Of a stretch of DNA of 64,000 nucleotides, positions 1 through 62,552 are shown piece after piece. Every line of letters starts with the position of its first letter. Position 1 is the stretch's first letter. Source of the DNA: Candidatus Hatepunaea meridiana (lineage in GTDB: Bacteria > Electryoneota > AABM5-125-24 > Hatepunaeales > Hatepunaeaceae); the NCBI GenBank assembly GCA_030765125.1, contig JAVCDD010000180.1:7033-71032 (forward strand), in the 5' to 3' direction. The position numbers and the translations under genes were made by a program. Below the pieces are notes generated by a model. It was not told the origin of the DNA. It saw only the letters and a program-made list of their open reading frames with translations, and made no database searches.

Positions 1-3000
1 ATACGGCGCGGGTCGGGATCTTCATCCAGTATTATATCCCCGATATCCTCAATGATTTCAGGTGGATCGTTGACCGGATTGATCACCAACCGGAAGTCCA
101 GATCGGTTGAAGCACCCGGTTCGTCGGTGGCTCGAATGGTAATTTCTACGCCGTCCGGGATATTGTAATTCGGTTCAGGTTCGAAATGCAGTACATTGAA
201 CTGGTCGACCTCCATATTCAACTCTTCTGGAGCGTCGATGACCGAAAAGTTCATTTCGTCTTCTTCTATATCGTAGAACACTTCGTCGAGGTCAGCCACG
301 TCAACCCGGTCAGGGTCTTCGTCAATCCTTATATTTTCAATCTGTTCGACAATCCGCGGTGCATCGTTGATGGCGTTAACGACGACTTCGAAGACGTCTT
401 CCGCCGTTTCTTCACCATCTGAAGCGGTGATCGTAACATCGACGTTCCCGTTCCAATCCGCTTCAGGCTGGACATAGAGCCTGCCCTGTACAATGCGAAT
501 ACTAAGCCCTTCAGCGTCGGACTCCTGGAACTCAAGATCGTCATCATCATCCGGGTCAACGAAGTGATCGTTCAGATCGGCAATTAGCCTTTCACCGTCG
601 TCCTCGTCAAATTCCTGATCGGGGATTTCCTCTACTAATATGGGTGGTTGATTTACGTGACCGACGGTAATATCAACCGTTGCGCGGGTCCTGCGACCTC
701 CCTGGTCACTTACTTCGAAGATCGGGCTGTATTCACCTTCATCATCAAGATCGGTCTGCCAGTTGAATGTGCCCGTGTTATCACCATTATCAGTGAATTC
801 CGCGCCGCGGTCTTCAGTTCCGTCGTCAACCAGCATTAACAGTTCCAGTTCGTCACCTTCAAACTCGATGTCAAAATCGTCAGCGGTCAGAGTGAATTCG
901 ATTTCATCGCCCTCATCAACATTTACCTCATCCAGCGGGTCAACCCAGAAGGGAGGGTCATTGACAGGGGTTATGGTAACCAGGAATACATCGTCAATGC
1001 TGTCATCACGGCGCGGGGAAGAAGAATTTTGGATTTTGGATTTTGAATGTTGAATGTCAGTAGCGTAAGCATTCCCGCTTGCGGAAACCATACACGCTGT
1101 TCGTAGCGCCGACGTCTTAACGGCATTACCGGAATTATAAGATGGTCTGAATACCATTAAGGCTCTACCGCCTTGATCATCGTCTGCTGTTACGGTTACT
1201 TCGAGATCATCACCGTTGAAATTCTCCGGAGCTTCCAACAGCAGCATATTATCATCGTCAATCTCTGCCGTAAGAGGTTCATCCGCTTCAACAGAGAATG
1301 ACAGATCATCGTCATCCGGGTCCTCGAATACCTCATCCAATACTGCGACTTCAAACTGACCGAAGTCCTCGGGTACACGCATATCCGCAATCGGGCTGAC
1401 TACCCGAGGTGGCTGGTTGATGTTGTTAACGGTGATATTAACCGTCAGATCATCGGTTCCATCATCTGTGTCGGTTACGCGGAAGACAGGGGTATAAGGA
1501 TCATCACGACTATCATCAGCGCCAGGCGTCCAGGTAAATTCTGCCGTGCCGTCGTCGTTATCAGCAAATTCCCATCCGTCAGGCAATTCACCTTCGTCGA
1601 ATACCGACCAGACCAGATCGTTGACATCATCTTCAACATCACTTGCCTGGAAGACGATATGGAGTTCTTCCTCTTCAGTAACATCAACGTCAATCTCATC
1701 GCCTAAAGCCTCGCCCTGATCGTCTTCGATAACAGGATCATCGTTAATCGAAAGGACGTTGATCGTGAATTCATCGGTAATTGATTCGTCTCTTCGAGGA
1801 GGAGAAGAATGTAGGATGAATTTTGAATGTTGAATGTTGAATGTTGAATGTTGATTATTGATTCGGGCGGCGATCATAATTCGCTGTCCCCAACTGTCCT
1901 CGGCTTCGATAATCACCTCTGATTCACCGAAGTAGTTCGGATCTGGTTCTACGGACAGGATGTGTGTTTCAATATCAATATTAGCGTTCAATTCTTGAAT
2001 CTCATTAGCTTCGATGATGTCAAACTCTAAATCATCACCATCCGGATCATCGAAAACATCGTCCAGGTCGGCGATTTCGATTACACCGGCGTCCTCGTCA
2101 ATATCTATATCGTCAATCGGATTTACAACTTCCGGAGGACGGTTGAAGTTGCCGACGGCGATGGTGATCTCCAGATCGACATCTTCCTCACCATCGGATA
2201 CCGTGAAGATTGGCGTATATTCACCTTCGTCTTCGAACGTTGTCTGCCAGGTAAAGCTTGCCGTACCGTGCTCGTTATCATTGAGTTCCGCTTCATCCGG
2301 CAGACCACCGCGGTCGCTGAATTCGATGGTCAGATCGTTGTTGTTGTCCACGTCATCCTGGGCAATAAGTTCGAAACGGGCAACGTTTCCTTCGTTTACC
2401 TCGTAACGATTGTCTTCAGGATAGCTCTCCCAGACCGGTGGATCGTTGAGCGGATTAACGGTAACAGTGAATTCATCGGATACGGTCTCGTCGCGGCGGG
2501 GTGGAGGGTTGAAATAGGGGGACAGTATACCTATTTCTGTTAATGGACCATCGTTCTTTTCAAGAGCACTCATGAAATAGGTATACTGTCCCCCTATTTC
2601 TGCGAGGCTTCGAGATGGCTGCACATTAACCATCAAACGCCCACCGTTCTCCTCATCATCTGCTGTCACGGTTACGATTAGATTCTCACCGTAAAAATCA
2701 TCCTCCGGTCTCAACGTCAGGATATTCTCATCGCTGATTTCCAGATTCAGTTCTTCAGTACCTTCCACCGAGAAAGTAAGATCGACGCCGTTCGGATCTA
2801 CGAAAATTTCATCCAGGTCGGCTACCTCCAACAGACCGGAATCTTCGTCGATTTCGACATCGTCAATCGGATTTACAACTTCGGGAGGATCGTTGATGGC
2901 TATGCCGGCGATATCAACCGTCAATTCAGCGTTGTCAGGATCGTTGGAGCTAATTGTTATTACGTCGCGGAACACACCGGCGTCTTCGGGAGCGAAGGTT

Positions 3001-19862: not shown

Positions 19863-19910
19863 GATGGGTACCTTTTGTATGATTTCTCGATTGAATTGTG
19901 AAGGTTATGA

Positions 19911-21847: not shown

Positions 21848-21918
21848 AAAACCAGCCTGATGGTTGAACTCTGAACTTGAAAACAGCCTAAGGGCTGGAC
21901 TCTGAACTCTAAACTCTG
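21848..21918. repeat. Family C elements: short hairpins followed by GAACTCTGAAC / (AACTCTR)3
   Basis: aaccagcctgatggtt+gaactctgaac is followed by cagcctaagggctgg+actctgaactctaaactctg. Relatives lie at 25747, 50886 and 63787. Confidence 0.65.
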
Positions 21919-23857: not shown

Positions 23858-23944
23858 AAATAGGGGGACAGTATACCTATTTCATAAATACTCTTTGAAA
23901 TAACGACGGTCAATAAAGAAATAGGTATACTGTCCCCCTATTTC
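23858..23944. repeat. Family A palindromic element, intergenic copy
   Basis: The arms aaatagggggacagtatacctatttc (23858-23883) and gaaataggtatactgtccccctatttc (23918-23944) sit in the 131-bp spacer between the Mrp-NifX stop and the OYE start. Confidence 0.8.
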
Positions 23945-25746: not shown

Positions 25747-25810
25747 AGAGTCCAAGCTTCAGCTTGTTTTAGCTATCTAACCAGCAAGCTGAAGCTTGAA
25801 CTCTGAACTG
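25747..25810. repeat. Family C hairpin element
   Basis: agagtccaagcttcagcttg ... caagctgaagcttgaactctgaactg. Confidence 0.65.
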
Positions 25811-26070
25811 AAAAAATCTGCGTAATCTGCGGATGAAAAACAATATCAATTTACTAAAAAACAATTCCAAAGTCAATTATTTCAATCCTTTCTATTGATT
25901 TTGAATAAATGTAATTCCAGCATTTGGTGTGCATACGTTGCATATATTAACAACGGGGAATAAAACCCAATCCTTATTGCGATATGGTTTCTAATGTAAA
26001 AGATATTGGCACGACTTTTGCAACAGAATATTACAGAGAAGAAATTCCCTCGGTTCATATGATGATTTGT

Positions 26071-35202: not shown

Positions 35203-35251
35203 TTCACCTCACAGGCAGGGTCGCCTGCGGCTCCTGTATTTCGGCTAACAT

Positions 35252-35372
35252 TGTCGGACAAGAGTGTCCAACCTACTAAAACATCGGTAGGATAGGCATT
35301 CCTGTCTGTCGTACACCTCTTAATTATAGGCATCGTTTGACAGACAAGAATGTCTGTCCTACCCTTCGTGTG
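35252..35372. repeat. REP cluster: one type-2 REP plus an inverted pair of type-1 REPs (REPIN/BIME-like), all with GTAG heads
   Basis: 35252-35276 is tgtcggacaagagtgtccaacctac, the reverse complement of GTAGGTTGGACACTCTTGTCCGACA. 35287-35310 is GTAGGATAGGCATTCCTGTCTGTC. 35349-35372 is gacagacaagaatgtctgtcctac, an inverted copy. Confidence 0.75.
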
Positions 35373-44600: not shown

Positions 44601-47600
44601 ACCATTCGACTTCGATGTCCGACGCGGCGGTGAGATGAAGCTGGATATTTATCACCACTCCTTCTTCCTCATTGGGATCGTTGGAAAGGAAGGTCAGATC
44701 AGCTTCGTAATCACCCTCAGCTAAACCAGCGCCGTCAAGTGTAACGGTAACGATCATTGCATCGTCACCTGCAACGGTTCCTTCGACAGGATCGTACGCC
44801 AGCCAGTTTGTTTCAGCGATACCGTCATCGACGATCTGGAATTCCTGTACGACCCGGACGCCGAGCCAGAGGTTTTCACCGTCATGACCGGGGTCACTCC
44901 ACTGGTCGTTGCCGTTATTCCAGGCGGTGTTCTGGACTACTTCAACAAACGACCAATCATCTGTGTCAATCGAGACCTCCATAAGGCGGCTCTGAGTATT
45001 TATCCAGAGCTGACCGTCGGGATGCTCGTCAACCCAGCAGATGCCGCGGCTGAACTGGTTAACAAGAGGACCCTGTCGCCAGTTGATCGTGGCGACACGT
45101 TCCACATTATCGTTAACCGGTCTGACTACGTGCATTCCCCAGGCGCCTGTGCCTTCTATAGCGATAAGCACACCGTTCTCGGGGGAAGCAGCCAGGGCTG
45201 TAACCGAATTGAAGCCCATTGGCAGGTTGCCAAGGTTTTCTCCCTCAGCGTCATGCCTGCCGACAAAGGCGCCCGACCAGGCGACATTGTAGACAACGCC
45301 GTCCATCCAGGCAATGTCCATCACGTTTTGACCCTGGGGTTGATAGGCAATTTCCTCAGTGAAGTTTTCGTAATCACCGTCCCATGATATTGCGGCGATC
45401 CAGTTTGGACTGTAAGTAGCTACCCACATCCATTCGTTGTCAGTGTCGAAATTGGAAGAGTGCTTGTAACCGGCAGCTCCACGAGCCCACCTGTAGGTTG
45501 CTATCACGTCCATGAAATCATCACGACGCGGTCCTTCGGCATTCCTTGTGCTGCGCAGTGAGCGAGCGTTTGCATCGCGATCCGGTTCTGCGACAATCTC
45601 ATGCTCGACAGTGAAGCGCAGATCGGCTTCGCCTTCGTTGGCTACCGTTAGTTCAACATCGACAAGACCACCGGTATACAGATCTTCTTCGATAGAACCG
45701 GGATTAATAGCAATTTCCGGAGGCACGCCTGCATCAGCCAGCAGCGCTATTTCAAAATCCTCTTCATTTGGATCGTTCCAGACGATTACCATCGCCTCTT
45801 CAAACGCATCCCCGCTTGAAGCATCGAACGTAAATGTAAATTCATCGCTCTCGCCGGGTTCTAATGAAGCATCCACCGGATCTGATGTGAAGAGATCGTT
45901 TTCACAGTAGATATCTTCAATTTCCAGATCGTCTGTGCCTGTGTTTTCGATTTCAACGAGAACATCATACGTTTGGTCAACGAAAAGATTAAGATAAGCG
46001 AGATTCCAATCTATTACCGCTACTTCCGGATCTTCATCCCAGCCAATATCCGCAGACCATGTAGCTCCAAGCGCAGGCGCTCCGGTTACGTGCATTATTA
46101 TGTTAAATACTAATTCTTCATTGTCGGGATCGTTGGTAGTGAAAGTCATATCAGCTTCATAGTCACCAGTGAATAAACCTGAGCAATCAAGCGTAACGGT
46201 AACTTCTGCCTGATCGTCAGCTTCAATGGTTCCTTCATCCGGTTCATAAGCGAGCCACTTTGCGCCACCCATCTCGGTCAGGTATAACAGGATTTCAGAG
46301 GCCATGGAGCCCCACTCACCACCGTTACGAGCGTAATTGAACCAGCAGTGACCTGTCGGGTGACCGACGGTCAGAACAGTACCCTTACCGAAGCCGTAAG
46401 CGACAGCGCCAGGTACGTCCTGATTCTGCTTAGTGGCAATAACCTGGTACCATTCAAGAGTGCCGTCCTCTACCTTTTGAACGAACTGGTTTTCAAGGTA
46501 ACCGGAATGCAGCCATGAGCCGCCTTCAATGATTTCGCCCTCTTCCCAGTAGTTCGGTTCGGATCTGTGACAGATCTCGGCAAACAGACTGTAGTTGTCA
46601 TCATTCGGGTCAGGGCTGACAACCAATGTGCCGTTACTGGTTCCTCCGGCTGAATTGTTGACAATATCTCCGGGACCATGCATGGGGCTGTTGGCGTCAG
46701 CAGTTTCATAGTAACATGCGCCACCACCGTCAACATACTCTTCCAATCTTTCAAAGTTGTTCTGGTAATTCTGGCTGTTCATTGAACTGCGAGCAGCTAC
46801 TACGATGACATCATACTCGCTGAAGTCAACATTGTCCCAGTCGCCTGCTTGACGATAGGAATGATAGTTGTCGTTGTTCAGGAGCGGATCCTGACGCATA
46901 CCATCGTCCACCCAGCCCCATGTGCTGTTGATCTGGAAGGCGGCAAACAACAATCCGTCGAGTTCGTTATCTTCGAGTGGGTCACGACGGGGACCATCAG
47001 CGCGACGTGCTGTACTGCGCAGGGTGCGCGAGGCATTATCGCGATCGTCATCACCCGGTTCAGCGATGATCTCAGACGCAATACTCCAATTCAGATCCGC
47101 TCCACCGGTGTTGGAAAGTGTCAACACGTGTTCTTCAATGTCGCCGGTGAAGTAATCTTCCTCAACTGAACCGGGAGCTAACTCAAATGCAGGAGGTGTG
47201 AATGCCTGCGCAACAAGATTTATTTCAATATCCGCAGGCTCATCAGCCGGATCATTCCAAACGATTACCATAACCGCTTCGTGTTGATCCGTATCCTCGG
47301 AATTGAAGATAAAGTTAACTTCAAGGCTCGAATGTCCAATAATCACTGCATCGGCAGGATCACAGGTGAAGCGTTGGTTCTCACAGGTGATACTTTCTAT
47401 TTCGGTGTCGTCTGTTCCCGGATTAATCAATTCGATTGTGACGGGGTAGTCGTGCCCTGCATAAAGTTCTTCATGAGCGGCGTTAAAATCGACTACAGAA
47501 TCACCATTATCCGGATCGAAGCCGTGATCCTCAGACCATGCAACCTCAAGGGCAGGCACGCCTGTTACGTGCATTATAACACTAATTACGACTTCATCAT

Positions 47601-54000: not shown

Positions 54001-56562
54001 ATTGATTTCAGCGGTAGTTCAGATTTCAACATCGGTGAGTCTGAAGTTATCGACCTTGGGTTCACCACCAACTTCTACGGTTATTCTTATGATTGTATTA
54101 CCGTTGGTACCAACGGCTTCATCGCCCCGGGTGATCAGGGTGAAATCACCAACTTTATGAATTGGCCTATGGATCGGGCTATGGGTGGCGGCTGTGGAAT
54201 GATAGCTCCTCTATGGGATAATCTTAGACTAAGCGGTAATGATGCTGGTATTTACTATTACTATGATGAAGACCAGGGACGGTTTATTGTCGAATGGTAC
54301 AAACTGCGGCATAGAACTGGCGGGAATACGGATCTGACTTTCCAGGTAATACTTTACGACAGCGATGTATGGAGAACTGTAACCGGAGATCAGAACGTTC
54401 TTTTTCAATATAAAAGCGTTTCCAATGTAAGAGGGAATCAAGATCACGATTCTTCACCGACACCTTATGAGAACGCTTTTGCTTCTGTCGGCATCTCAAG
54501 TCCTGACGGCTTTGGTTTAAGCTATTCATATAAAGACGAATACCCAACCGGGGCAGCGGCATTAGCAAATCGCAGAGCGATCCTGTTCACGACGTCGCTC
54601 GTATATAAGAAAGGCGACCTTTTTGGAGAAGTCCTGGATGTGGCAACCGGTGATCCGATTCCCGATGTAACAGTCTATACCGAACACGGCTTCATCGGAA
54701 CTACCGATGAGGATGGGCAATGGATAATCGAGGAGGCTCTGGCAGAGATACACTTTGATATAACTGCATCGTTATTCGGGTATAACGATTCAACCTTAAC
54801 CGATATGGAAGTCGAAGAGGATGGTGAACTTGAAATTAATTTCTCTCTTCTCCACCCTGAATTCACACCGTCTATTCGTTCAATCGTTCATTATCTGGAT
54901 CCGGATCAAAGCTGGGTGTATAATTTCACTGTTGAGAATACGGGCAATGGGATAATGACGTGGGAACTGGATAGACGACTGCCGCTCGGTGCAGACGTGG
55001 AACCATGGGAACACCGTCTGTCCTATCCGGTTGGTCAAACGATAAATGACTCGCGAATTGAAGGTGTTGTGTTTTTTGATGGAAGATTTTATATATCCGG
55101 TTCCAATCAAGTTGGCAGAGAAAACGGTCCAAATATGATATATATCCTTAATCAGGAAGGTGAGGAAATAGACAGGTATGAACAGCCGTGTGATTCGAGT
55201 TCAAGATACGGTATGCGCGACCTTGCATATGATGGGGAACTGCTGTGGGGATCCGGTGAACGCAATGTATATGGATTCGTTCCGGAAACCGGAGAAGTAG
55301 TTGATACTATCGAGGGTGAATATTCTTCTCAGCAGGCGCTCGCCTGGGATACTGATCGGGAAATTCTCTGGACAAGCGGCATCACCAGCCAGGAAATCAT
55401 CGGTTTCAACAATAACGGTGAAGAGGTTGCTGACCTTCCGCGCAACGGTTTACGCATATATGGCTTGGCTTATTGGCCTGAAGACCCGGACGATCATCCT
55501 CTTTACATCTTCCACAGCCCGGGTGATGGAAGATCGGTCATTCATAAATACAACACTGTTGAAGAAGATACAATGTTTGTCAGGGAGTTGCAGCTGGAAC
55601 AAGGTGGCACGCCAAACGGCGCTTATGCAACTAACCAGTTCGACGTGTACAGTTGGGTATTTATGAACATAGCGAACGAAGGCGCTAATGACAGGATTGA
55701 CATCTGGCAGCTTGAAGCAAATCGCGACTGGTTCCGAGTATCTATGGATACCGATACCGGACACGTTCAGGCAGAGCACGGAACGGTTGAAGCAACCTGG
55801 GATAAGGAATTCACCTTAACACTTGATACAAGGGATCTGCCTGACTCAGTTGAATTCGAAGGCTATCTGATTTTTCGTCATAACGCCGGTATAGGTGTTG
55901 ATACAATCAATGTAATATTGGACGTTATCGGACCGGAACAACCTTTACCGTTCAGACTGCTCGTTCCCCGCAACGGTTCAGCTATTGATGCAAACGTTGA
56001 CGACACCGAGATGACGTTTGGCTGGGAACCTTCGGTTGATTATAATCATAACGATACTTTAAGATACCTTGCCTGGTTTAAGAGCGGTGATGATTCTACT
56101 ATGTTCAATACTGAGAACAACGTTATAACGCTTGACATCGCTGAAATTGCAGATAGTCTTGAACTATCGATAGAAGATGATTTTATCATAGACTGGTGGG
56201 TTAAGGCTATATCCGGTGAGGATACGGTTGCTTGTAATGATATTTTTATGTTCTTTTTCACACCTAACGCTACTGACGAATACGGAAACATACCGGTAGA
56301 ATTCGGTTTGCAATCAATCTATCCTTCACCGTTTAATTCAATGACGACGGTAAGATTCGGAATCGACCGTCCTGCGTCAGCGACGCTTCAGATTTACGAT
56401 CTTCGCGGGCGCGAAGTTACTACATTATATAATAATCACAATTCCTCAGTTGGTTATCACAACGTAGTCTGGGATGCATCATCAATGCCATCAGGACTGT
56501 ATATAGTTCGTCTCGAATCCGAAGGGCGGGTGCAAACGAAGAAGATTGCTCTTGTTAGATAA
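51070..56562 (+). CDS. Gingipain-like (peptidase C25 family) multidomain protein with propeptide-like N-terminus and T9SS C-terminal sorting domain
   Basis: A 1830-aa ORF with signal peptide MNRLTLSLLLSLILTSYTTAYE. GKPLLPAINRFVVVPP...VRMVKITTYPIQYNP is C25-propeptide-like. HYCVVTNSLCLQYIQPFIEWRRKSGYKVDIISL...YLLLVGD is C25-like. It also has a CarboxypepD_reg-like segment, a propeller-like region and the CTD IYPSPFNSMTTVRF...GLYIVRL...KIALVR (56308-56559). Confidence 0.8.
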   Translation: MNRLTLSLLLSLILTSYTTAYEGPTSSADPHAAIISSSDQAIRIGFELADLEVREVVKDDETFDAHILTGEGTTYDYGKPLLPAINRFVVVPPQSALELVIEADEPRCMPASNPPALCTNDNITGSIWGNLRENAVYPPVIAEMSEPTIIRGVRMVKITTYPIQYNPVTNEYLHRDHIRTEIQFSDGDPINPVEHPERRHRSQTFLKVIENMAINGDQVRRDQPPDVEPPYVGHYCVVTNSLCLQYIQPFIEWRRKSGYKVDIISLSGGSATNANGIKNAIQNLYDEYDENGIDPFEYLLLVGDRSAYSYSPPVGWQLAAPAGNSSWGGAPHADYELGLLEGNDIHPDVGIGRWWVGQPDKLQLAVGRTLNYEATPYMDDTDWFNAAGAFSQHWGNQANIAWHITIHTTVRWGKEVLEHLGYEDVRTYERYQHDQMGGEIGPVLTRWFNDGMSIMVGRGELYNWRNSFGGVNNRNVNPIFITFSGHGEWACEAMTRTGNGNNTIGPVNMTCGWGWSVIPTTNAMWLELVNAVLVKDIPMGWAYCSAITLFELYFPNVAAHRNTMLYPNIKTDNIHFGDPGILPWIGVPRVVEADFPETITDHTSTILVHVSEGENDTAVEGAQVTLYAPGDIPDADDNDYAEYDDISMLTTLSDEDGNARFVLEDDFILENGTTAYITVTGRDIKPYFGEIDIEDPDVAIEIAEYELIEVDGNDDDEVNPGETFRLEITAANVGGDETAEDVTAVVRTLSSWIEVENRDITFGDIEEGEEVEGDGEVNLIISPACPDGASRPITRPEILITFASDDIEWESAIVLTPEAPNYEVKEIVGNDILEVGARDFDVEIENIGSQNGPAVTAELFTIGMGASVVNSESSYPSIRTGRSSRLSGNDFIISGNRLSVPGYINEMMLIFTTEDGFNDTAYFEIQVREPMDNTPIGPDPYGYICFDDTDEGWDISPAYRWVEISPREDEFDFRGERIDFSGSSDFNIGESEVIDLGFTTNFYGYSYDCITVGTNGFIAPGDQGEITNFMNWPMDRAMGGGCGMIAPLWDNLRLSGNDAGIYYYYDEDQGRFIVEWYKLRHRTGGNTDLTFQVILYDSDVWRTVTGDQNVLFQYKSVSNVRGNQDHDSSPTPYENAFASVGISSPDGFGLSYSYKDEYPTGAAALANRRAILFTTSLVYKKGDLFGEVLDVATGDPIPDVTVYTEHGFIGTTDEDGQWIIEEALAEIHFDITASLFGYNDSTLTDMEVEEDGELEINFSLLHPEFTPSIRSIVHYLDPDQSWVYNFTVENTGNGIMTWELDRRLPLGADVEPWEHRLSYPVGQTINDSRIEGVVFFDGRFYISGSNQVGRENGPNMIYILNQEGEEIDRYEQPCDSSSRYGMRDLAYDGELLWGSGERNVYGFVPETGEVVDTIEGEYSSQQALAWDTDREILWTSGITSQEIIGFNNNGEEVADLPRNGLRIYGLAYWPEDPDDHPLYIFHSPGDGRSVIHKYNTVEEDTMFVRELQLEQGGTPNGAYATNQFDVYSWVFMNIANEGANDRIDIWQLEANRDWFRVSMDTDTGHVQAEHGTVEATWDKEFTLTLDTRDLPDSVEFEGYLIFRHNAGIGVDTINVILDVIGPEQPLPFRLLVPRNGSAIDANVDDTEMTFGWEPSVDYNHNDTLRYLAWFKSGDDSTMFNTENNVITLDIAEIADSLELSIEDDFIIDWWVKAISGEDTVACNDIFMFFFTPNATDEYGNIPVEFGLQSIYPSPFNSMTTVRFGIDRPASATLQIYDLRGREVTTLYNNHNSSVGYHNVVWDASSMPSGLYIVRLESEGRVQTKKIALVR

Positions 56563-56567
56563 TGTTT

Positions 56568-56599
56568 GTGGTGTCGTGGTGTCGTGGTGTTGTGGTGTC
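56568..56599. repeat. Octanucleotide tandem repeat (GTGGTGTY)4 just after the 1830-aa gene stop
   Basis: Units are gtggtgtc (56568-56575), gtggtgtc (56576-56583), gtggtgtt (56584-56591) and gtggtgtc (56592-56599). Confidence 0.85.
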
Positions 56600-56610
56600 G
56601 GGATTTAAGG

Positions 56611-56660
56611 GTAGGACAGACATTCCTATCTGTCGGTAGGTTGGACACTCCTGTCCGACA
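56611..56660 (+). repeat. Two tandem REPs with GTAG heads (type 1 then type 2)
   Basis: GTAGGACAGACATTCCTATCTGTC (56611-56634) is followed by GTAGGTTGGACACTCCTGTCCGACA (56636-56660). Confidence 0.8.
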
Positions 56661-56884
56661 ATCATCGTGTCAGACAATCCCGAAGTTTCGGGATGACCTA
56701 CTGGAAAGTTTTAATCAAGATGGACACTTTTTAGAAACCAGCAGGCGTTTTGCTTGCTGGTTTTTTTATTAGCTTCTGTTTTATCTGATAAAAATGTCTT
56801 CGCAACTCTGTTTAATTCTTGGTAAGCAGGAGTTTTTTATATTATATTATAGAAACAGACGTTCAAGAACAACCGGAGAATAAA

Positions 56885-59800
56885 ATGTCCAAAAAAACCA
56901 TTCTTTTATTAGCATTTATAATCTTTTTAACATTAACCCTTTTCAATCAGGGGTATACAACCACCCGCCCAACGGGATTGTCAACCGGATCAAACGAATT
57001 CGCTCAAATCTTATCCCAATCCGGTACGGATCTACATATAAGATTCACACCACCGGCATCGCATAAACGGCTTCTTGATGAAATCACAGCATCGCAAAAT
57101 CAGAACATCACGAATCTTGCCTACACCTATTGGTTGGTCGTTCCGCCAATGGATCATGTTGAACTCGAAATAGTTGAGCAGAATGGACGGCGGTTGTCAA
57201 TCTCGGACAGGGATGCACCTGATCCGTACATAGATAGAGAAGATGTAAAAATTCAGACAGACAAGTATTATCCTCCAGCTCCTGTAATAATGGGCAAACC
57301 GCAGATTATGCGCGGTATCAGGATGGTTCCGATAACAGTTTTTCCAATACAGTTACTACAGGAATCATCACAGGCAGGGACGCCTGTGTCACCCGATGGT
57401 ATACAGAAATCACAGCATCACAACATCACAACATCACAACATCAAATTGCTGTTGAAAACAGTCAGATTGAAATAAAACTCAATTTCACTAATGACGAAG
57501 CAATAAATCCTTTATTGAATTCTGCCCCTCGACAGATGTCGCACAGCTTTGCCAATATAATCAATTCCTACACACTCAATCCCCCACCCCACTTGATCCC
57601 TCGACGGGATCTGGCAGCGACGGAACTCGCCAAATCGCTGATCCTGTACCCTCAAGTCTTTGATGATAACGAGGATGCCGCGGAAGCTATGATATGGCTC
57701 AATCATCTGGTTCATTGGAAGCGCCGACAGGGTTACTATGTTGAATTGGCAGCAGTTGAAGTCGACCGTGAAAACGAAGATAACAGCGATGATATAAAGG
57801 ACTTGATCGGTGACTACTATGAGGATGGTTTTGAGTTTGTAACCTTGATTGGCAACGAAGATTACGATGAGCTTAATACCGTTGAAGGAAACAATACCGA
57901 ACTCTATTTTCCATCCTGGATGTTTATCATCCGCGTTGTTCAGGATACTCTCGGGAATGACGTTATCATCCGGGGTTATCGCGAGCACGAGTATTCGCTG
58001 CTCGAAGGTGACGACGAGATGCCTGACATTATCATCAGCCGTATCAAAGTTCCCACTTACGACAGGCTTGTCGGTGCGCTCCGGAAAACTATCGCATATC
58101 AAATTGACCCGTATCTGGATAATGATAATGACTGGTATTCACATTCTCTGGTTACGATTGAAGAAGACTCGATTGGCATTATTGTCCTTTCCCCTGAATA
58201 TTTATCGCTGGCATATTGGGAACAAGCTCGGCTCACACAAAAAGGATATAATGATATTGATGTTATCCTCGGTCCTGTAGGATCATTTGAAGATGGCGTT
58301 TACGTTGGAGATGACATTAAAGAAGTACTTGAAGAAGGCGTTTCATTAGCATTAGGAGAGGGCTGGCTGTATGATTGTGTTGCACATCGTAACTGGGAAC
58401 AATGGGAAGATTACGCTGAAACCGGAAGGATGCACCCATTTGTCATCGCTAATCTATCCTATTACGAGCAACAGGTAATGTATCCGTTCTATGCTTCCGG
58501 AACTTCAGACAACCTGAATGGTCCTATCGCGGGATTGGGCATCTACGATACAGGAGGACGCTCAGTATATATGACTCATATAATCGGAAGCGCGCTTATG
58601 GCGATGACAATGAACGATGTTTATACACCCGGACATCTTCAGATTATTACAAAGATGTATCTGTCAGGTCTCATTGACAGTGTAAGAATCTACGAAGAGG
58701 ACCCGGAAGAAGCTTATATTAGCGGGATTATCACAGCCTTACGCCTCCATTGGACATTAGGAGATCCGACGGTTGACGTCTTTTCAGAATTTCCCGTTCA
58801 GATAACCGTTGATCATCCCGAATCATATCTAATTGGTGAAACATCAATAATACTAAATGTAATAGATGATAATGATAATAACGTTGCCGATGCTAACGTT
58901 TGCATTTATCAGGAAGATGGCATTCATTATGTAACCCAAACAAACGATGCAGGTATGGTAGTCTTCACCATCCCAGGAGATGGGCTCGAAGAAGGTGAAC
59001 TACTGATAACCGCCAGCAAACACAACTGCATACCATATCTTCCTCCCGATCCTGTACCTGTGAGAACGGGTAATATTAATCTTGTGCTTGAAGATGCTGG
59101 TTTCGACGATGAAGACAACGGCGACGATAATGATGATCACTTTCGGAACGGCGAAGAGGTCGTGCTGATTCTTACGCTGACTAACACCGGCGATCAGGAT
59201 GCGGAAGGCGTCTCTGCAACTCTTAGCTGCGACAGCGAATGGCTCAGTTTCTCACGGGAAGGAATTGAATTCGGGGATATAGATTCGGATGAAACGACTA
59301 CCTATCAAGGTGATCAGGTTATAATGACCCTTGATATGGACTGCCCTGATCGTTCTCTTCTACGAATCCAGGCAGACATTAATATTGATGAGGAAACAAT
59401 TACATCCGTTGCTTTTGAAATCACTACCTACGGACCGAAGCTCTTTACCGCACCACATCTGATTGATGTTGACGAGGGTTTTGTTGGGGGCGGAGAGAAT
59501 GCTTCTTTTTCACCGACTATTCAAAATCTGGGCAGGACAGGAATATCAACATTCACTGCTGAATTAGTAAGTCTCAACGAACTTATCACCGTTACTGAAG
59601 CTGAACGTAACTATGGTGCTATTGAGCCTTGGCTGGATCCTGAAGAGGATCCAGACGAACAATCGCCGAATGAACCGTTCATTATTGATTTTGACGAACT
59701 TTTCGTAGCTGGAAATGAAGCACGATTCGAACTGCGAATATCTGCTGAGGATGACTATGATACAACAATGATAATCTCCAAGTTCGTTCCCAGTCGTGAA

Positions 59801-62233
59801 GCCGGTGAACCGATAGGACCGGATGATTACGGTTATATATGCTTTGACAGTCAGGACGAAGACTGGTTTGAAAGTCCTTTCTATTACTGGTATGAAATTA
59901 ATAGTGATGTTGAAGATCACGAATTCCAGGGCACAAAGCTGGATTTTCAACCTGATGCCAATGCGCGCTGGAATGATGCTGAAGTTGTCGAACTCCCATT
60001 CACATTCCAATACTATGGTGATGATTTCGATAATATAACCATTTGCACCAACGGCTTCATTACCATTGGAGATGTCGACACCTTCTTCTATTCACCAAAT
60101 AACCACCAGATACCCGACTATGCTGCACCCGATGGTCAGTTATGTATTCTTTGGCAGGATATTTCCTGCGTGCGACCGCTATACACCGGAGTTTATTACT
60201 ATTATATAGAAGAGGAAGGTGTCTTTGTCGTGGAATGGAGCAATGTTCAAATATGGAGTTCAGATGGTGTCCATAACGTTACTTTCCAAATACTTCTATT
60301 CGATCCTGAATTATATCCAACTGCAACGGGGGATGGTGAGATCGTCTTCCAATACCAGCAATTCCAGGCAATAGAAGGCGCCGATTACCCTCGCTACTCC
60401 ACAATCGGTATTCGAAACCTCGATGGCAGTGGAGGTCTTCAGTACGCTTTCTGGAACCATTATGTCGATCAGGCAAATCCCATTGAGAATGAGTTTGCGA
60501 TTAAGTTTACTACAGCAACCGAGAATGAATATGGATCCGTAGTGGGTCGTGTAGTTAGACTTGAAGATGAGAATGCTGGATTAGAGAGTGTTAGAATAAG
60601 CAGTCTGCGCTTCAGTTCGGTTTTCAGCGATGAGGATGGTTATTTCCGAATCAGAAACCTGCGAACCAGCCGTTTCAATGATGTAAGAGTCTTAAAAGAG
60701 GGCTTCAATACTCGTTTCATTGAGTTTGACATTGCACCCGATGAAGAAACAAACGTCGGGAATGTTACTCTCGCCCACCCGGAATTTTCAGTCGAAACAA
60801 GCCCTGAAGAAGCAGATACACTCTACCTTCGACCTGACGGAACACAACTGCATCTTCGTGTGAATATTGAGAACGATGGCAATGGCGCTTTAGATTATCA
60901 AATCGGTATAGTCAATCACGACGGCAGTGATCTCGATTACGATAACGTTCAAAATATAGGTCTACCCCAAGTGCTTAACGAACCGAGGTGTTACGGCGCT
61001 GTTTATGTGGATTCCCTCTTTTACATCCCAGGCACTAACAGGCACATTAACAACAATGAAGGCGGTCATCTTATTTACGTCATCAATCAGGCAGGAGAGT
61101 TTGTTCGCAGCTTCGAACAACCAATGGCGGAAATCGATTCCAGTGCGAACGGTTTTAATAATCTTGCCTGGGATGGTGAGTATTTATGGGGAGTTGTTAA
61201 AGACTATACCGGTGAGGAAAGAGGACACCTATTTCGCTTTGATCTTGATGGTAATGAAAACCTTCGCATTGTCAACCCGTTTGACCGTTACATGGGGCTG
61301 TCAATAGCAATCAATCCGGAAACCGGTAATCTCTACCTTGCAGATCAAGGTACCGGAGTGGTTGAATTCGAGATCGATAGCTGCAACAACCTTAACGAGG
61401 TCAATCGCTTTTCCATTCACCGTCCCTCATTGGAAGTGCGTATTGTTGGAATTGGCTGGAACGAATATGACCCGGACGGTATGAAGTTGTATTTACTCGA
61501 AAAACAGATGCCGGTTGAAGGTGAATCAATACCAATGCTTCTGAAGATGAACCATGAGACCGGGGAATGGAGGGAAGCTAACCAACTTTACTACACGAGA
61601 GATGCTCCTGCACATCGCGGAATGGCGATTATTCACAACCTTAGCTATGAACGTTCTATGATTGCTATTGTAGAAGACTTTGGCGGTGGTCGTATGGATA
61701 CAGCACGTGACAGCCTGCGCATTTATGAGATCGGTCCAAATTTATCCTTCCTGACAGATGGAGGTATTAGTAACAGGTTGGGAACAATTAATGCAGGAGA
61801 GCAAGGTCAAGCCGGTTTGTTAATGGATGTGAATGGCTGGACTGAGTATAGTTCCGTTTCATTTGGCATCAGGATTGACCACAACGCTGCTGAAGAGGCT
61901 GCTATTATTCCAATTGTATTAAATGTGGATCCAACCACATTCGGATCGAAGAACAATGCTTCTAAACCAACCGATTTCGGGATAACATCCGTTTATCCGA
62001 ACCCGTTCAATTCCGTTGTCAGGATTGAATTCTACATAGACGCCGCTATGCCGACAGCGCTGAAGATATTCGATCTGACAGGTCGGGAAGTAAAAACGCT
62101 ATACGAAGGATTGCCAGAGGTTGGCTATCATCAATTGATATGGGATGGAGCTAAGACTGCTTCCGGCGTGTATTTCTTAAAACTTGAATCGGAAGGACGA
62201 GTGAAGACGGTGAAGATGGCAATTGTGAAGTAA
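56885..62233 (+). CDS. Second gingipain-like (C25 family) paralogue with T9SS C-terminal sorting domain
   Basis: The track ORF starts at a TTG (56819). I prefer the ATG at 56885, which gives MSKKTILLLAFIIFLTLTLFNQG (signal-like). The domain order matches the 1830-aa neighbour: propeptide-like, C25-like (FVTLIGNED..), DxYGYICFD domain, CarboxypepD_reg-like, propeller-like. The CTD, VYPNPFNSVVRIEF...GVYFLKL...KMAIVK, spans 61982-62230. Confidence 0.8.
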   Translation: MSKKTILLLAFIIFLTLTLFNQGYTTTRPTGLSTGSNEFAQILSQSGTDLHIRFTPPASHKRLLDEITASQNQNITNLAYTYWLVVPPMDHVELEIVEQNGRRLSISDRDAPDPYIDREDVKIQTDKYYPPAPVIMGKPQIMRGIRMVPITVFPIQLLQESSQAGTPVSPDGIQKSQHHNITTSQHQIAVENSQIEIKLNFTNDEAINPLLNSAPRQMSHSFANIINSYTLNPPPHLIPRRDLAATELAKSLILYPQVFDDNEDAAEAMIWLNHLVHWKRRQGYYVELAAVEVDRENEDNSDDIKDLIGDYYEDGFEFVTLIGNEDYDELNTVEGNNTELYFPSWMFIIRVVQDTLGNDVIIRGYREHEYSLLEGDDEMPDIIISRIKVPTYDRLVGALRKTIAYQIDPYLDNDNDWYSHSLVTIEEDSIGIIVLSPEYLSLAYWEQARLTQKGYNDIDVILGPVGSFEDGVYVGDDIKEVLEEGVSLALGEGWLYDCVAHRNWEQWEDYAETGRMHPFVIANLSYYEQQVMYPFYASGTSDNLNGPIAGLGIYDTGGRSVYMTHIIGSALMAMTMNDVYTPGHLQIITKMYLSGLIDSVRIYEEDPEEAYISGIITALRLHWTLGDPTVDVFSEFPVQITVDHPESYLIGETSIILNVIDDNDNNVADANVCIYQEDGIHYVTQTNDAGMVVFTIPGDGLEEGELLITASKHNCIPYLPPDPVPVRTGNINLVLEDAGFDDEDNGDDNDDHFRNGEEVVLILTLTNTGDQDAEGVSATLSCDSEWLSFSREGIEFGDIDSDETTTYQGDQVIMTLDMDCPDRSLLRIQADINIDEETITSVAFEITTYGPKLFTAPHLIDVDEGFVGGGENASFSPTIQNLGRTGISTFTAELVSLNELITVTEAERNYGAIEPWLDPEEDPDEQSPNEPFIIDFDELFVAGNEARFELRISAEDDYDTTMIISKFVPSREAGEPIGPDDYGYICFDSQDEDWFESPFYYWYEINSDVEDHEFQGTKLDFQPDANARWNDAEVVELPFTFQYYGDDFDNITICTNGFITIGDVDTFFYSPNNHQIPDYAAPDGQLCILWQDISCVRPLYTGVYYYYIEEEGVFVVEWSNVQIWSSDGVHNVTFQILLFDPELYPTATGDGEIVFQYQQFQAIEGADYPRYSTIGIRNLDGSGGLQYAFWNHYVDQANPIENEFAIKFTTATENEYGSVVGRVVRLEDENAGLESVRISSLRFSSVFSDEDGYFRIRNLRTSRFNDVRVLKEGFNTRFIEFDIAPDEETNVGNVTLAHPEFSVETSPEEADTLYLRPDGTQLHLRVNIENDGNGALDYQIGIVNHDGSDLDYDNVQNIGLPQVLNEPRCYGAVYVDSLFYIPGTNRHINNNEGGHLIYVINQAGEFVRSFEQPMAEIDSSANGFNNLAWDGEYLWGVVKDYTGEERGHLFRFDLDGNENLRIVNPFDRYMGLSIAINPETGNLYLADQGTGVVEFEIDSCNNLNEVNRFSIHRPSLEVRIVGIGWNEYDPDGMKLYLLEKQMPVEGESIPMLLKMNHETGEWREANQLYYTRDAPAHRGMAIIHNLSYERSMIAIVEDFGGGRMDTARDSLRIYEIGPNLSFLTDGGISNRLGTINAGEQGQAGLLMDVNGWTEYSSVSFGIRIDHNAAEEAAIIPIVLNVDPTTFGSKNNASKPTDFGITSVYPNPFNSVVRIEFYIDAAMPTALKIFDLTGREVKTLYEGLPEVGYHQLIWDGAKTASGVYFLKLESEGRVKTVKMAIVK
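57369..57448 (+). repeat. In-frame insertion in the second C25 paralogue: CACAGGC-AGGGAC-GCCTGTG hairpin plus (ATCACAAC) octamer array
   Basis: The hairpin spans 57369-57388, and its core caggcagggacg recurs intergenically at 35425-35436 (and as caggcagggtcg at 35212). The octamers are atcacagc (57409-57416), atcacaac x3 (57417-57440) and atcaaatt (57441-57448). The region codes SSQAGTPVSPDGIQKSQHHNITTSQH, about 25 aa absent from the aligned position of the 1830-aa paralogue. Confidence 0.7.
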
Positions 62234-62250
62234 ATAATATTTAGAAAATG

Positions 62251-62552
62251 TTAAATTGCTGTATTGTTATATTGCTTTATCGGTTATGCCTTTAGCTCAG
62301 CAATGTATAAACCTAATAACACCGGAGTAGCGCAGCTTGCTGCGCGTCCACTTAACAATACCGGAGTAGTAAAGCTTGCTGCGTTCTTGCACTGTGGCGC
62401 ATGCATGTCTGCTTGCGAGCGCGCAGCAAGCTGCGCTACTCCGGTTGAGCTAAAGGCATAACCGATTGCTTTATTGCTGTTTAACAATATAACAATACAG
62501 CAATATAACAATACAACAATTTAACAATGAGACAATCAAACAATTCTATTTA
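62251..62552. repeat. ~300-bp composite inverted-repeat element between convergent genes: octamer arrays + three GTAG-CGCAGCTTGCTGCG REPs
   Basis: The outer arms are ttaaattgctgtattgttatattgctttatcggttatgcctttagctca (62251-62299) and tgagctaaaggcataaccgat...caatataacaatacagcaat (62447-62505). REPs lie at 62327-62345 (+), 62366-62383 (+) and 62421-62439 (-). Octamer arrays are (ATTGYTNT)3 at 62255-62278 and (AACAATNN)8 at 62483-62546. Confidence 0.75.

What the first reader, a model, noticed from the sequence alone, without database searches (positions are those of the whole stretch)
56563..57448. Octanucleotide arrays: (GTGGTGTY)4 after the first C25 gene and (ATCACAAC)3-5 in frame within the second
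The intergenic array at 56568-56599 is followed by two GTAG REPs. The second paralogue carries a hairpin (57369-57388) plus an 8-bp array (57409-57448), coding ...SQAGTPVSPDGIQKSQHHNITTSQHQ. This is about 25 aa longer than the aligned loop of the first paralogue (PIQYNPVTNEYLHRDH versus PIQLLQESSQ...HQIAVENSQ).

An 8-bp period is not divisible by 3, so unit gain or loss would frameshift the gene about 180 codons from its start. The two arrays are related by reverse complement (GTTGTGAT versus GTGGTGTC, 5 of 8 positions). This suggests the coding insert came from an intergenic-type element.
Basis: seen in the sequence. Interest (0 to 1): 0.7.

Follow-up and report, generated by a model that had tools for sequence, protein, structure and literature searches.

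The report
REP-plus-octamer repeat inserted in a gene
The extra 25-residue loop in the second C25 peptidase gene is an in-frame insertion of a common intergenic repeat (a GTAG-type palindrome plus a short 8-base array), which is a known kind of event and not a demonstrated genetic switch.

Summary
Both 8-nt arrays are real and non-random. (GTGGTGTY)4 lies 5 nt after the stop of the first C25/T9SS gene. It leads into two GTAG-type REP hairpins, a third inverted hairpin and a terminator. (ATCACAAC)~4.5 lies in frame in the second gene.

That gene carries a 25-aa insert found in neither its paralogue nor 17 homologues. AlphaFold2 models it as a disordered loop between two confident beta-strands.

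The insert's hairpin is an antisense, diverged copy of a REP family that is identical across more than 10 phyla. A model built only from foreign copies detects it (E=5e-4). In all four strong arrays in the window, the GT-rich strand leads into a hairpin 1-16 nt downstream. The neighbouring giant ORF carries further in-frame copies of intergenic elements.

So the insert did come from an intergenic-type element. This is a known kind of event: intragenic GTAG REPs, Rickettsia RPEs and 5-11-nt SSRs.

A change of 1 or 2 units would truncate the protein at codons 188-200. However, only about 3.5 units are perfect and no population data could be obtained, so phase variation is untested. The 5/8 reverse-complement match between the two arrays is at chance level.

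The parts
51070..56562 (+). P1, the first C25 peptidase gene (1830 aa). It has Propeptide_C25, Peptidase_C25 and a T9SS C-terminal sorting domain.
   Evidence: ORF; Pfam.
56568..56599 (+). Intergenic GT-rich octamer array (GTGGTGTY)4. It starts 5 nt after the P1 stop, in the P1 3' UTR.
56611..56634 (+). GTAG-REP copy GTAGGACAGACATTCCTATCTGTC, 11 nt downstream of the array.
   Evidence: Covariance model R1, 33.6 bits, E=1.3e-7; 1 mismatch to the cross-phylum consensus.
56636..56656 (+). Second GTAG-REP (GTAGGTTGGACACTCCTGTCC). It has a sibling at 35256-35276 on the minus strand.
   Evidence: R1 E=0.016 and 0.038; sequence.
56677..56701 (-). Inverted hairpin ATCCCGAAGTTTCGGGAT with CTAC (GTAG on the minus strand). 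It closes a BIME-like REP cluster. A sibling hairpin lies at about 63905.
   Evidence: Direct reading. The cluster folds as RNA at -39.7 kcal/mol, z -3.2.
56733..56769 (+). Intrinsic-terminator-like hairpin plus a U-run that ends the P1 transcript after the array and REP cluster.
   Evidence: Inverted repeat I15. RNA fold -20.8 kcal/mol, z -5.25. The simple consensus scan did not list it.
56885..62233 (+). P2, the second C25 peptidase gene (1782 aa from the ATG at 56885, with GGAG 8 nt upstream). It is intact and has a T9SS tail.
57083..57114 (+). Degenerate older copy of the octamer array (ATCACAGC ATCGCAAA ATCAGAAC ATCACGAA). The surrounding 57080-57111 is 29/32 identical to 57406-57437 but is read in a different frame (ITASQNQNITN).
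   Evidence: the repeat finder family D1; frame worked out.
57365..57439 (+). Lineage-specific in-frame insert of about 75 nt (25 aa, roughly SQAGTPVSPDGIQKSQHHNITTSQH). The boundaries are uncertain by about 6 nt because ATCA repeats at both junctions.
   Evidence: Alignment A1. The anchor-to-anchor length is 74 aa against 46-49 aa in 17 homologues and P1. AF2 pLDDT is below 50 over aa 163-183, between confident strands.
57369..57392 (-). REP hairpin inside the insert, antisense to the gene. The minus strand reads GTGA-CACAGGC-GTCCCT-GCCTGTG.
   Evidence: R1 21.3 bits, E=5.4e-4. Intergenic sibling at 35210-35229, 18/20 identical with 0 expected by chance. DNA fold z -3.05.
57409..57448 (+). 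Coding octamer array (ATCACAAC)n: 3 perfect units flanked by 2 degenerate units. It covers codons 175-188 (SQHHNITTSQHQI).
62249..62526 (.). Complete composite element after the P2 stop. A GT-rich 8-nt array (62249-62280) and an AC-rich 8-nt array (62495-62526) are 94% complementary. They enclose a 21-nt perfect palindrome arm pair and an inverted pair of GTAG REPs (ACCGGAGTAGCGCAGCTTGCTGCGCG).
1026..1083 (+). Parallel case inside the giant minus-strand ORF. A heptamer array (GGATTTT/GAATGTT) is followed 2 nt later by a GTAG hairpin, and the coding strand reads ...TDIQHSKSKIQNSS...
   Evidence: R1 only weak (E=0.74).
1817..1890 (+). Parallel case inside the giant ORF. A (TGAATGT)5 array is immediately followed by the hairpin GGGCGGCGATCATAATTCGCTGTCCC, and the coding strand reads RINNQHSTFNIQHSKFILHSS.
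2513..2598 (-). A roughly 86-nt palindromic element (terminal inverted repeat GGGGGACAGTATACCTATTTC) in frame in the giant ORF. It lies at the same loop as the two array inserts and matches the intergenic copy at 23859-23942.
   Evidence: 4 perfect terminal repeats, 0 expected by chance.

Best explanation
This genome is littered with mosaic intergenic repeats. They combine GTAG-type REP hairpins with strand-asymmetric 7-8-nt tandem arrays, in which a GT-rich array leads into the REP head and the mirror arm is AC-rich.

One such module sits in the 3' UTR of P1: the array, two REPs, an inverted hairpin and then a terminator. A complete symmetric module follows P2.

A half-module, one REP plus one array, became inserted in antisense orientation into the turn between two beta-strands of the N-terminal propeptide-like domain of P2. 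It added about 25 residues in frame.

It survives for two reasons. The loop tolerates it, and in this orientation the AC-rich strand is the coding strand, which has no stop codon in any frame. The opposite orientation contains TGA.

The array itself is an ordinary long simple-sequence repeat of the 5-11-nt class, made and resized by replication slippage. It has probably been partly homogenised since insertion.

Shown:
- the insertion is real and lineage-specific;
- the hairpin belongs to the REP family;
- the array-then-REP layout recurs;
- other in-frame element insertions occur in the same window;
- the insert is predicted to be a disordered loop.

Inferred:
- the mobilisation mechanism (a RAYT-type tyrosine transposase);
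- that the array and REP arrived together rather than the array expanding afterwards;
- that the insert is selectively neutral.
For: 1. The insert is present only in P2. There is a 25-column gap in P1 and in the 9 closest representatives. The segment between two conserved anchors is 74 aa in P2, against 46-49 aa in 17 homologues and 49 aa in P1. Many phmmer hits break exactly at query residues 185-195.

2. The hairpin is a REP. An intergenic sibling matches 18/20 with 0 expected by chance. The covariance model R1 was built only from copies in other phyla, and it scores the minus strand of 57369-57392 at 21.3 bits, E=5e-4. It ranks alongside the clear REPs at 56611, 35287, 35339, 6783 and 11373.

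3. The layout recurs. In all four strong non-triplet arrays in the window, the GT-rich strand is followed by a hairpin 1-16 nt downstream, and three of these carry a GTAG or GTGA head. With about 18 R1 hits in 128 kb, this adjacency is very unlikely by chance (my estimate is p around 1e-7). The same layout occurs in Zixibacteria loci L037 and L072 and in L099. Across 895 kb of foreign REP loci, arrays are 1.9-fold enriched within 100 nt of REPs (p=0.02).

4. There is precedent in the same window. A roughly 86-nt palindromic element sits in frame in the giant ORF and is about 84% identical to an intergenic copy. REP copies also lie in frame at 6783, 11373 and 11502.

5. Orientation fits a stop-codon filter. 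ATCACAAC, ACATTCA and CCTTCAT are open in all frames on the coding strand and closed on the other strand.

6. The AF2 model places the insert (aa 163-183, pLDDT below 50) between strands with pLDDT of 73-94.

7. Published work already describes each component: intragenic GTAG REPs and REPs nested in longer palindromes (PMC3733652), and heptamer-rich long SSRs (Mrazek 2007, as cited in PMC4679880 and PMC4692102).
Against: - The REP head in the insert is GTGA rather than GTAG, and its loop differs by 2 nt from the consensus. The E-value comes from a briefly calibrated model.
- No empty-site allele from a close relative is available. The nearest homologue is only 50% identical, so the insertion boundaries and the order of events cannot be fixed.
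- The 32-nt match to 57080-57111 in the same gene suggests that at least the array part may have been copied or converted within the gene rather than imported.
- Array-REP enrichment in foreign genomes is modest. Most arrays there are not adjacent to this particular REP.
- No RAYT gene is visible in the 64-kb window.
Confidence: 0.72

Rival explanations
1. The coding octamer array is a working contingency locus. Slipped-strand gain or loss of one or two 8-nt units switches the secreted C25 peptidase off by truncating it at about codon 190, and switches it back on. The arrays in other T9SS cargo genes would do the same.
For: A change of 1 or 2 units puts a stop at codons 188-200, while a change of 3 units stays in frame.

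All coding arrays seen lie in T9SS-secreted or giant surface proteins. In the related contig L001, a (CCTTCAT)5 array sits immediately upstream of a T9SS sorting domain.

The same octamer shows unit-number differences at 2 of 15 loci recovered from more than one metagenome contig (3 versus 4 units, and 9 versus 10).
Against: Only about 3.5 perfect units are present, flanked by degenerate units. At 10 of the 11 three-unit loci the recovered contigs show no variation.

No population data exist for this locus.

The bias towards giant surface genes is also expected from target size and tolerance alone, because these ORFs fill most of the window. The arrays also occur in purely intergenic copies, where no frame is at stake.
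Confidence: 0.12
2. No mobile element is involved. The loop grew by local slippage of native sequence (ancestral ...GAATCACAACATCAA...), and the hairpin only resembles a REP by coincidence.
For: The junctions share ATCA/ATCACAAC-like sequence, so 1.6 units could be native. A degenerate copy of the array exists 326 nt upstream in apparently native sequence. Long SSRs arise de novo in many genomes (PMC4679880).
Against: Slippage of an 8-mer cannot create the 24-nt hairpin or the 16-nt spacer. The hairpin matches an intergenic copy 18/20 and a REP model built from foreign copies at E=5e-4. The same array-then-hairpin layout recurs four times in the window.
Confidence: 0.08
3. The insert is selected at the protein level, for example as a Ser/Gln/His/Asn/Thr-rich flexible linker or a glycosylation (N-I-T) site. 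The DNA periodicity would then be a by-product.
For: The two ATCACAAC-like segments both encode N-I-T (NQNITN, HHNITT). The loop is predicted to be disordered.
Against: The two DNA copies are read in different frames over most of their length, so the similarity lies in the DNA and not in the protein. No homologue has such a loop.
Confidence: 0.05

Closest known systems
Intragenic GTAG-type REPs (Di Nocera, De Gregorio and Rocco 2013, PMC3733652; REP/RAYT and REPIN literature, PMC3116915)
   Same: It is a short palindrome with a GT(A/G)(G/A) head. The family is dispersed and mostly intergenic, lies just downstream of ORFs, and forms inverted dimers. Some copies sit in frame inside intact genes and add 20-30 residues. 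Some families are shared by distant taxa, and REPs can be nested inside longer palindromes.
   Different: Here the inserted unit is a REP plus an adjoining 8-nt tandem array. The head of the coding copy has drifted to GTGA. No RAYT gene was seen in the window. Some copies in the neighbouring giant ORF replace 8-9 codons without changing the length, which that paper does not describe as far as I read it.
Rickettsia palindromic elements (RPEs; Ogata et al. 2000, as cited in PMC3733652)
   Same: These are palindromic repeats inserted in frame into protein-coding genes that remain functional, typically at surface-exposed positions.
   Different: RPEs are longer (about 100-150 nt), belong to a different sequence family and occur in a different host lineage. 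They have no tandem-array component.
Long simple-sequence repeats of 5-11 nt and cyanobacterial STRR-type heptamers (Mrazek et al. 2007, as summarised in PMC4679880 and PMC4692102)
   Same: These are tandem arrays of 3-6 units of 7-8 nt. They are over-represented, mostly intergenic, often occur in inverted pairs, and vary in length between relatives.
   Different: The literature reports that non-triplet units are rare inside genes. Here three of the four strong arrays are in frame inside genes and are physically coupled to REP hairpins.
SSR-based contingency loci (phase-variable surface genes of Haemophilus and Neisseria; see PMC12721329)
   Same: A non-triplet repeat lies inside the 5' part of a gene for a secreted or surface protein, so a change in unit number shifts the frame.
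   Different: Classical loci have long perfect tracts of 1-5-nt units with documented variation. Here the unit is 8 nt, only about 3.5 units are perfect, and no variation is documented.

Membership tests
GTAG-type REP | A 20-40-nt imperfect palindrome carrying a GTAG (or GTRG) tetranucleotide at one end. | tested here: met
   The copies at 56611-56634 and 56636-56656 start with GTAG and have 7-bp and 5-bp stems. The coding copy at 57369-57392 (minus strand) has a 7-bp stem but a GTGA head. It is still detected by the family model at E=5e-4.
GTAG-type REP | Many dispersed copies, mostly intergenic and close to the 3' ends of ORFs, often as inverted dimers. | tested here: met
   There are 10 R1 hits with E<0.1 in 64 kb. 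An inverted pair lies at 35287 (+) and 35339 (-). The cluster at 56611 begins 49 nt after the P1 stop. At least 120 exact copies were found in other genomes, often as inverted pairs.
GTAG-type REP | A cognate RAYT (Y1 tyrosine transposase) gene in the genome. | not testable with these tools
   Only 64 kb of the genome is available. None of the 10 mid-sized ORFs scanned has a Y1 transposase domain.
In-frame intragenic palindromic insertion (intragenic REP / RPE kind) | The element is inside an intact ORF, its length is a multiple of three, and it is absent from homologues. | tested here: met
   The ORF is intact at 1782 aa. The extra 25 aa are absent from P1 and 17 homologues.
In-frame intragenic palindromic insertion (intragenic REP / RPE kind) | The same element family also exists as non-coding copies. 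| tested here: met
   An intergenic sibling lies at 35210-35229, and the family model R1 finds further copies.
In-frame intragenic palindromic insertion (intragenic REP / RPE kind) | The insertion lies in a surface loop and leaves the fold intact. | tested here: met
   In the AF2 model, strands 145-158 and 188-202 are confident and the insert has pLDDT of 43-44. This is a prediction only; the mean pLDDT is 67.7.
Long simple-sequence repeat (5-11-nt unit) | At least 3 head-to-tail units, more than composition predicts. | tested here: met
   TRF scores are 59 and 65.
Long simple-sequence repeat (5-11-nt unit) | Unit-number polymorphism between close relatives. | not testable with these tools
   No second copy of this locus exists in any collection searched. 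For the same unit elsewhere, 2 of 15 multi-contig loci vary by one unit.
SSR contingency (phase-variable) locus | A unit change alters the reading frame or the promoter spacing of a surface-protein gene. | tested here: met
   A change of 1 or 2 units gives a stop at codons 188-200. The product carries a T9SS sorting domain.
SSR contingency (phase-variable) locus | A long uninterrupted tract with observed ON/OFF length variants in a population. | tested here: inconclusive
   The tract has only about 3.5 perfect units. No reads or strain variants were obtainable. Three-unit tracts of this octamer were invariant at 10 of 11 loci sampled more than once.

The most novel reading that the evidence does not exclude
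The modules of a 7-8-nt array plus a GTAG-REP are not just tolerated junk. They would be a cross-phylum system that rewrites genes for T9SS and giant surface proteins in two ways. First, it installs frameshift-prone arrays that act as ON/OFF switches, as in P2, the giant ORF and the L001 gene just upstream of its sorting domain. Second, it overwrites 8-9-codon patches of Ig-like repeats with the REP sequence (VGQTFLSV) without changing their length, by a templated, conversion-like mechanism.
Probability: 0.12. Interest if true: 0.75.

Novelty: new member of a known kind. Interest (0 to 1): 0.4.

Why it matters
It explains an odd-looking non-triplet repeat inside a protease gene as the footprint of a mosaic intergenic repeat. 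It also shows that an uncultured, T9SS-bearing lineage tolerates such insertions in several very large secreted-protein genes.

The wider by-products may matter more than the finding itself:
- A 24-nt REP is identical across more than ten phyla.
- This REP is physically coupled to strand-asymmetric 7-8-nt arrays.
- REP copies replace beta-strand codons without any change in length.

Together these give concrete material on how REP-type elements spread and how they are accommodated in proteins. If the coding arrays do vary in length, they would be a simple switch for surface-protein display in these bacteria.

Tried and rejected
- Exact look-up of P1 and P2 in the contig index: not on record.
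- Two homologous-protein searches with the P2 N-terminus, one with 500 aa and one with a 177-aa core: no hits. An exhaustive phmmer search does find a 50%-identical protein, so the word index simply missed it.
- The search for related loci with P2 residues 1-600 in genome contigs and in metagenome contigs: nothing found. No same-species copy exists there, so neither length polymorphism nor an empty site could be examined.
- Rfam: no family at gathering threshold in the window, and only noise around the locus.
- Literature search for the REP sequence itself: no paper holds it.
- DNA alignment of P2 against the 50% homologue across the loop: too diverged to fix the insertion boundaries.
- The simple terminator scan missed the hairpin at 56733, so I folded it directly.
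- The idea that the two 8-mers are the two arms of one former palindrome: rejected. About 800 nt of conserved N-terminal coding sequence lies between them, and 5/8 identity is at chance level.
- Neither GTGGTGTC nor GTTGTGAT arrays occur in 895 kb of foreign REP loci.
- The metagenome scan for (ATCACAAC)3 gave many unrelated hits, some apparently from eukaryotes or phages. These were useful only for the rough rate of unit change.
Full report
**Observation**

The window sequence at 56568-56599 reads GTGGTGTC GTGGTGTC GTGGTGTT GTGGTGTC. The sequence at 57409-57448 reads ATCACAGC ATCACAAC ATCACAAC ATCACAAC ATCAAATT. TRF reports both as period-8 arrays, with 4.1 copies (score 59) and 4.5 copies (score 65).

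Dinucleotide-preserving shuffles expect 0.49 and 0.09 16-mer matches, against 4 and 3 observed. A scan of my own for arrays whose unit is not a multiple of three finds 5 in the window, against a mean of 0.8 in Markov shuffles.

The first array begins 5 nt after the TAA of a 1830-aa ORF (P1, 51070-56562). The second lies in frame in a 1782-aa ORF (P2, ATG at 56885, stop at 62233). Both proteins carry Peptidase_C25, a CarboxypepD_reg domain and a T9SS Por_Secre_tail. They are only 25% identical to each other. The hairpin at 57369-57388 has a 7-bp stem and a 6-nt loop. Every descriptive statement in the finding is therefore correct.

**The insert is real and lineage-specific**

An exhaustive phmmer search of 1.84 billion representative proteins gave 587 relatives. 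The best is 50% identical (P0001), and many alignments break at query residues 185-195, just after the array.

In an alignment of P2, P1 and the nine best hits, P2 alone has 25 extra columns between PIQ(L) and IAVENSQIEI. I also measured the distance between two conserved anchors, the PxQ after RGxRMVP and the LNP motif. This segment is 74 aa in P2, 49 aa in P1 and 46-49 aa in 17 homologues.

An AlphaFold2 model built on a 15-sequence alignment has a mean pLDDT of 67.7. It shows confident strands on both sides of the insert (block-mean pLDDT of 78-88 before and 73-94 after). P2 residues 163-183 have pLDDT below 50 and no regular structure. The insert is thus a loop in the turn of a beta-hairpin in the propeptide-like N-terminal domain.

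**The hairpin in the insert is a REP**

The 20-mer CACAGGCAGGGACGCCTGTG has one other near copy in the window, in an intergenic region at 35210-35229. It has 2 mismatches, with 0 matches expected by chance.

The first hairpin after the intergenic array, GGTAGGACAGACATTCCTATCTGTC, has four more copies within 3 mismatches. Two form an inverted pair at 35286 and 35339, and two are perfect copies inside a giant ORF.

The hits fall in metagenome-assembled genomes of these groups:
- Acidobacteriota
- Planctomycetota
- Chitinophagaceae
- Ignavibacteria
- Zixibacteria
- KSB1
- Kiritimatiellia
- Nitrospirae
- Chloroflexota
- Eremiobacterota

The copies often form inverted pairs with a compensatory GGC...GCC stem variant.

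I built a covariance model from 27 distinct foreign 24-mers only and ran it over the window without filters. The table lists the hits that matter here.

| Position (strand) | Score / E-value | Note |
|---|---|---|
| 6783 (-), 11373 (-) | 43.9 bits | Inside the giant ORF |
| 35339 (-) | 42.6 bits | Intergenic, one half of the inverted pair |
| 56611 (+) | 33.6 bits, E=1e-7 | First REP after the intergenic array |
| 35287 (+) | 28.8 bits | Intergenic, other half of the inverted pair |
| 11502 (-) | 28.7 bits | Inside the giant ORF |
| 57369-57392 (-) | 21.3 bits, E=5e-4 | The P2 hairpin |
| 56636 (+) | E=0.016 | Second REP after the intergenic array |
| 35256 (-) | E=0.038 | Sibling of the 56636 copy |

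The coding hairpin is a diverged antisense member of the same superfamily, reading GTGA-CACAGGC-GTCCCT-GCCTGTG on the minus strand.

**Arrays and REPs form composite modules**

For each of the four strong non-triplet arrays in the window, the GT-rich strand leads into a hairpin 1-16 nt downstream.

| Array (GT-rich strand) | Spacer | Hairpin that follows |
|---|---|---|
| (GTGGTGTC)4 | 11 nt | GTAG REP |
| (GTTGTGAT)n, in P2 | 16 nt | GTGA REP |
| GGATTTT/GAATGTT array at 1026 | 2 nt | GTAG hairpin (weak by R1, E=0.74), then a second GTAG hairpin |
| (TGAATGT)5 at 1817 | 1 nt | Hairpin GGGCGGCGA...TCGCTGTCCC |

With about 18 R1 hits in 128 kb of searched strand, I estimate that three such adjacencies out of four have a chance probability of around 1e-7.

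The region after the P2 stop shows the full form of the module:
- The outer arms are a GT-rich 8-nt array (62249-62280) and an AC-rich 8-nt array (62495-62526), 94% complementary.
- Inside them is a perfect 21-nt arm pair.
- Inside that is an inverted pair of GTAG REPs (ACCGGAGTAGCGCAGCTTGCTGCGCG).

The same layout occurs in Zixibacteria loci (heptamer array, about 20 nt, then two REPs) and in L099.

In 895 kb of foreign REP-bearing loci there are 165 arrays of period 7-8, or 0.18 per kb. They commonly form inverted pairs with a GT-rich 5' arm and an AC-rich 3' arm. They are 1.9-fold enriched within 100 nt of REPs (p=0.02), and 85% are not spanned by a long open frame.

After P1, the array and REP cluster are followed by a strong hairpin plus a U-run (-20.8 kcal/mol, z -5.25). 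The module therefore lies in the P1 3' UTR, which is the usual place for REPs (PMC3733652).

**In-frame element copies elsewhere in the window**

Positions 3-19904 on the minus strand form one open frame of more than 6634 codons. In its C-terminal part, three paralogous repeats carry inserts at the same loop, and two sibling repeats lack them.

One of these inserts is a roughly 86-nt palindromic element with the terminal repeat GGGGGACAGTATACCTATTTC. The same element occurs intergenically at 23859-23942. There are four perfect terminal repeats with 0 expected by chance, and the two copies are about 84% identical overall. The other two inserts are the heptamer-array-plus-hairpin cases described above.

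This is direct evidence that intergenic palindromic repeats get fixed in frame in this genome's large secreted-protein genes.

The orientation of all coding arrays fits a simple filter. ATCACAAC, ACATTCA and, in the related contig L001, CCTTCAT are stop-free in all three frames on the coding strand. Each contains a stop on the opposite strand.

**How this compares with what is known**

Di Nocera et al. (PMC3733652) describe GTAG REP families, some of them shared by distant organisms. That paper reports inverted dimers, a preferred location just downstream of ORFs, REPs nested in longer palindromes, and intragenic copies that encode 20-30 residues. They compare the intragenic copies with Rickettsia RPEs.

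Mrazek et al. (2007), as summarised in PMC4679880 and PMC4692102, found that heptamers are the most abundant long SSR class in many bacteria. They also found that non-triplet units are rare inside genes.

The finding is therefore a new instance of known kinds of element. Its less usual aspects are the physical coupling of array and REP, and the presence of non-triplet arrays inside intact genes.

**The frameshift idea**

Removing or adding one or two units gives a stop at codons 188-200. Three units keep the frame. The product is a T9SS cargo protein, so a switch is conceivable.

Several points count against it:
- Only about 3.5 units are perfect.
- No second copy of this locus could be found in any collection.
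- Among 15 unrelated loci with at least three ATCACAAC units that were recovered from more than one metagenome contig, only two differ in unit number (3 versus 4, and 9 versus 10). A third differs in an adjacent array.

Slippage at this size happens but is not frequent. Phase variation remains a possibility at roughly 10%, and it is not the best reading.

**Unresolved points**

The segment 57080-57111 in P2 is 29/32 identical to 57406-57437 and is itself 8-nt periodic, but it is read in a different frame. This shows that the similarity is at the DNA level. It leaves open whether the array was imported with the REP or was copied or converted within the gene.

The 5/8 reverse-complement similarity between the two arrays is about what chance gives. 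Neither unit occurs in the foreign REP loci.

Three copies of the REP in the giant ORF (6783, 11373, 11502) and a weaker one (5271) replace 8-9 codons of an Ig-like repeat without any change in length. They encode VGQTFLSV-like strands. The 27 nt are identical between two repeats whose flanks are only about 60% identical. An Ignavibacteria T9SS sorting domain carries the same in-frame REP (L079). I have no tested mechanism for this.

**Verdict**

The interpretation that the coding insert came from an intergenic-type element is supported. The inferred array-to-array relationship is not supported, and the switch function is untested.

Novelty: a new member of a known kind. Interest is moderate (0.4). 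It is raised somewhat by the cross-phylum REP and by the length-neutral coding patches noticed along the way.

Noticed in passing
window 6783-6806, 11373-11396, 11502-11525 and 5271-5294 (all minus strand, inside the giant ORF 3-19904): GTAG-REP copies sit in frame and in sense orientation in about 105-aa Ig-like repeats. They encode VGQTFLSV, VGRTSLSV or EGQASLPV. They replace the usual 8-9 codons (for example PDDSYELTV) with no change in length across 21 aligned repeats. Two copies are identical over 27 nt although their flanks are only about 60% identical. This looks like templated replacement rather than simple insertion.
   Followed up: partly
The copies often form REPIN-like inverted pairs with a compensatory GGC/GCC stem variant. 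About 14% of copies lie in open frames of at least 1.2 kb, for example 7 copies in one 4.9-kb frame in L092. One copy lies inside an Ignavibacteria T9SS sorting domain (L079).
   Followed up: partly
window 2513-2598 (in the giant ORF) and 23859-23942 (intergenic): A roughly 86-nt palindromic MITE-like element with perfect terminal inverted repeats GGGGGACAGTATACCTATTTC is present once in frame in a coding region (EIGGQYTYF...EIGILSPYF) and once intergenically. Partial copies lie near 20070, 34240 and 34375.
   Followed up: yes
window 21849-21917, 25756-25815, 50140-50230, 50670-50760, 50885-50915, 63787-63925: This is another repeat family. AGTTCAG/AGAGT heptamer words flank small CTTCAG/CTGAAG-loop hairpins, often as inverted pairs. 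Near-identical modules occur in Acidobacteriota loci L028, L054 and L057.
   Followed up: partly
L001 2877-2912 (contig of the closest P2 homologue, ENA ERZ24794676): A (CCTTCAT/CCCTCAT)5 heptamer array lies in frame (PFILHPSSLILHQ) immediately upstream of the T9SS C-terminal sorting domain of an 830-aa beta-helix protein. A one-unit slip there would remove only the secretion signal. The same heptamer family forms intergenic inverted arrays in Pyrinomonadaceae (L029).
   Followed up: partly
foreign loci, e.g. L003 2286-2400, L022 7551-7622, L023 6408-6483, L024 2438-2517, L029 4983-5060: Heptamer arrays very often come as inverted pairs, (unit)4-5, then 10-60 nt, then (reverse-complement unit)4-5. 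The 5' arm is always GT-rich and the 3' arm AC-rich, so the hairpin stems have 7-nt periodicity. I found no paper describing this arrangement outside Xanthomonas and cyanobacteria.
   Followed up: partly
window 57080-57111 versus 57406-57437: A 32-nt segment of P2 is duplicated 326 nt apart (29/32 identical). Both copies are 8-nt periodic but are translated in different frames.
   Followed up: partly
window 3-19904 (-) and 35641-50094 (-): Two giant ORFs lie here. One has more than 6634 codons and runs off the window, and the other has 4817 aa. Together with four further T9SS-tailed genes (including P1 and P2) they fill most of the window. The organism could not be named. T9SS cargo and the shared repeats suggest an uncultured FCB-group or neighbouring lineage.
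   Followed up: no
window 62321-62346, 62360-62391, 62420-62445; L001 3160-3225: A further GTAG-REP family (CCGGAGTAGCGCAGCTTGCTGCG) is shared between the window and the contig of the 50%-identical homologue. In both cases it lies just after the stop of a T9SS cargo gene.
   Followed up: no
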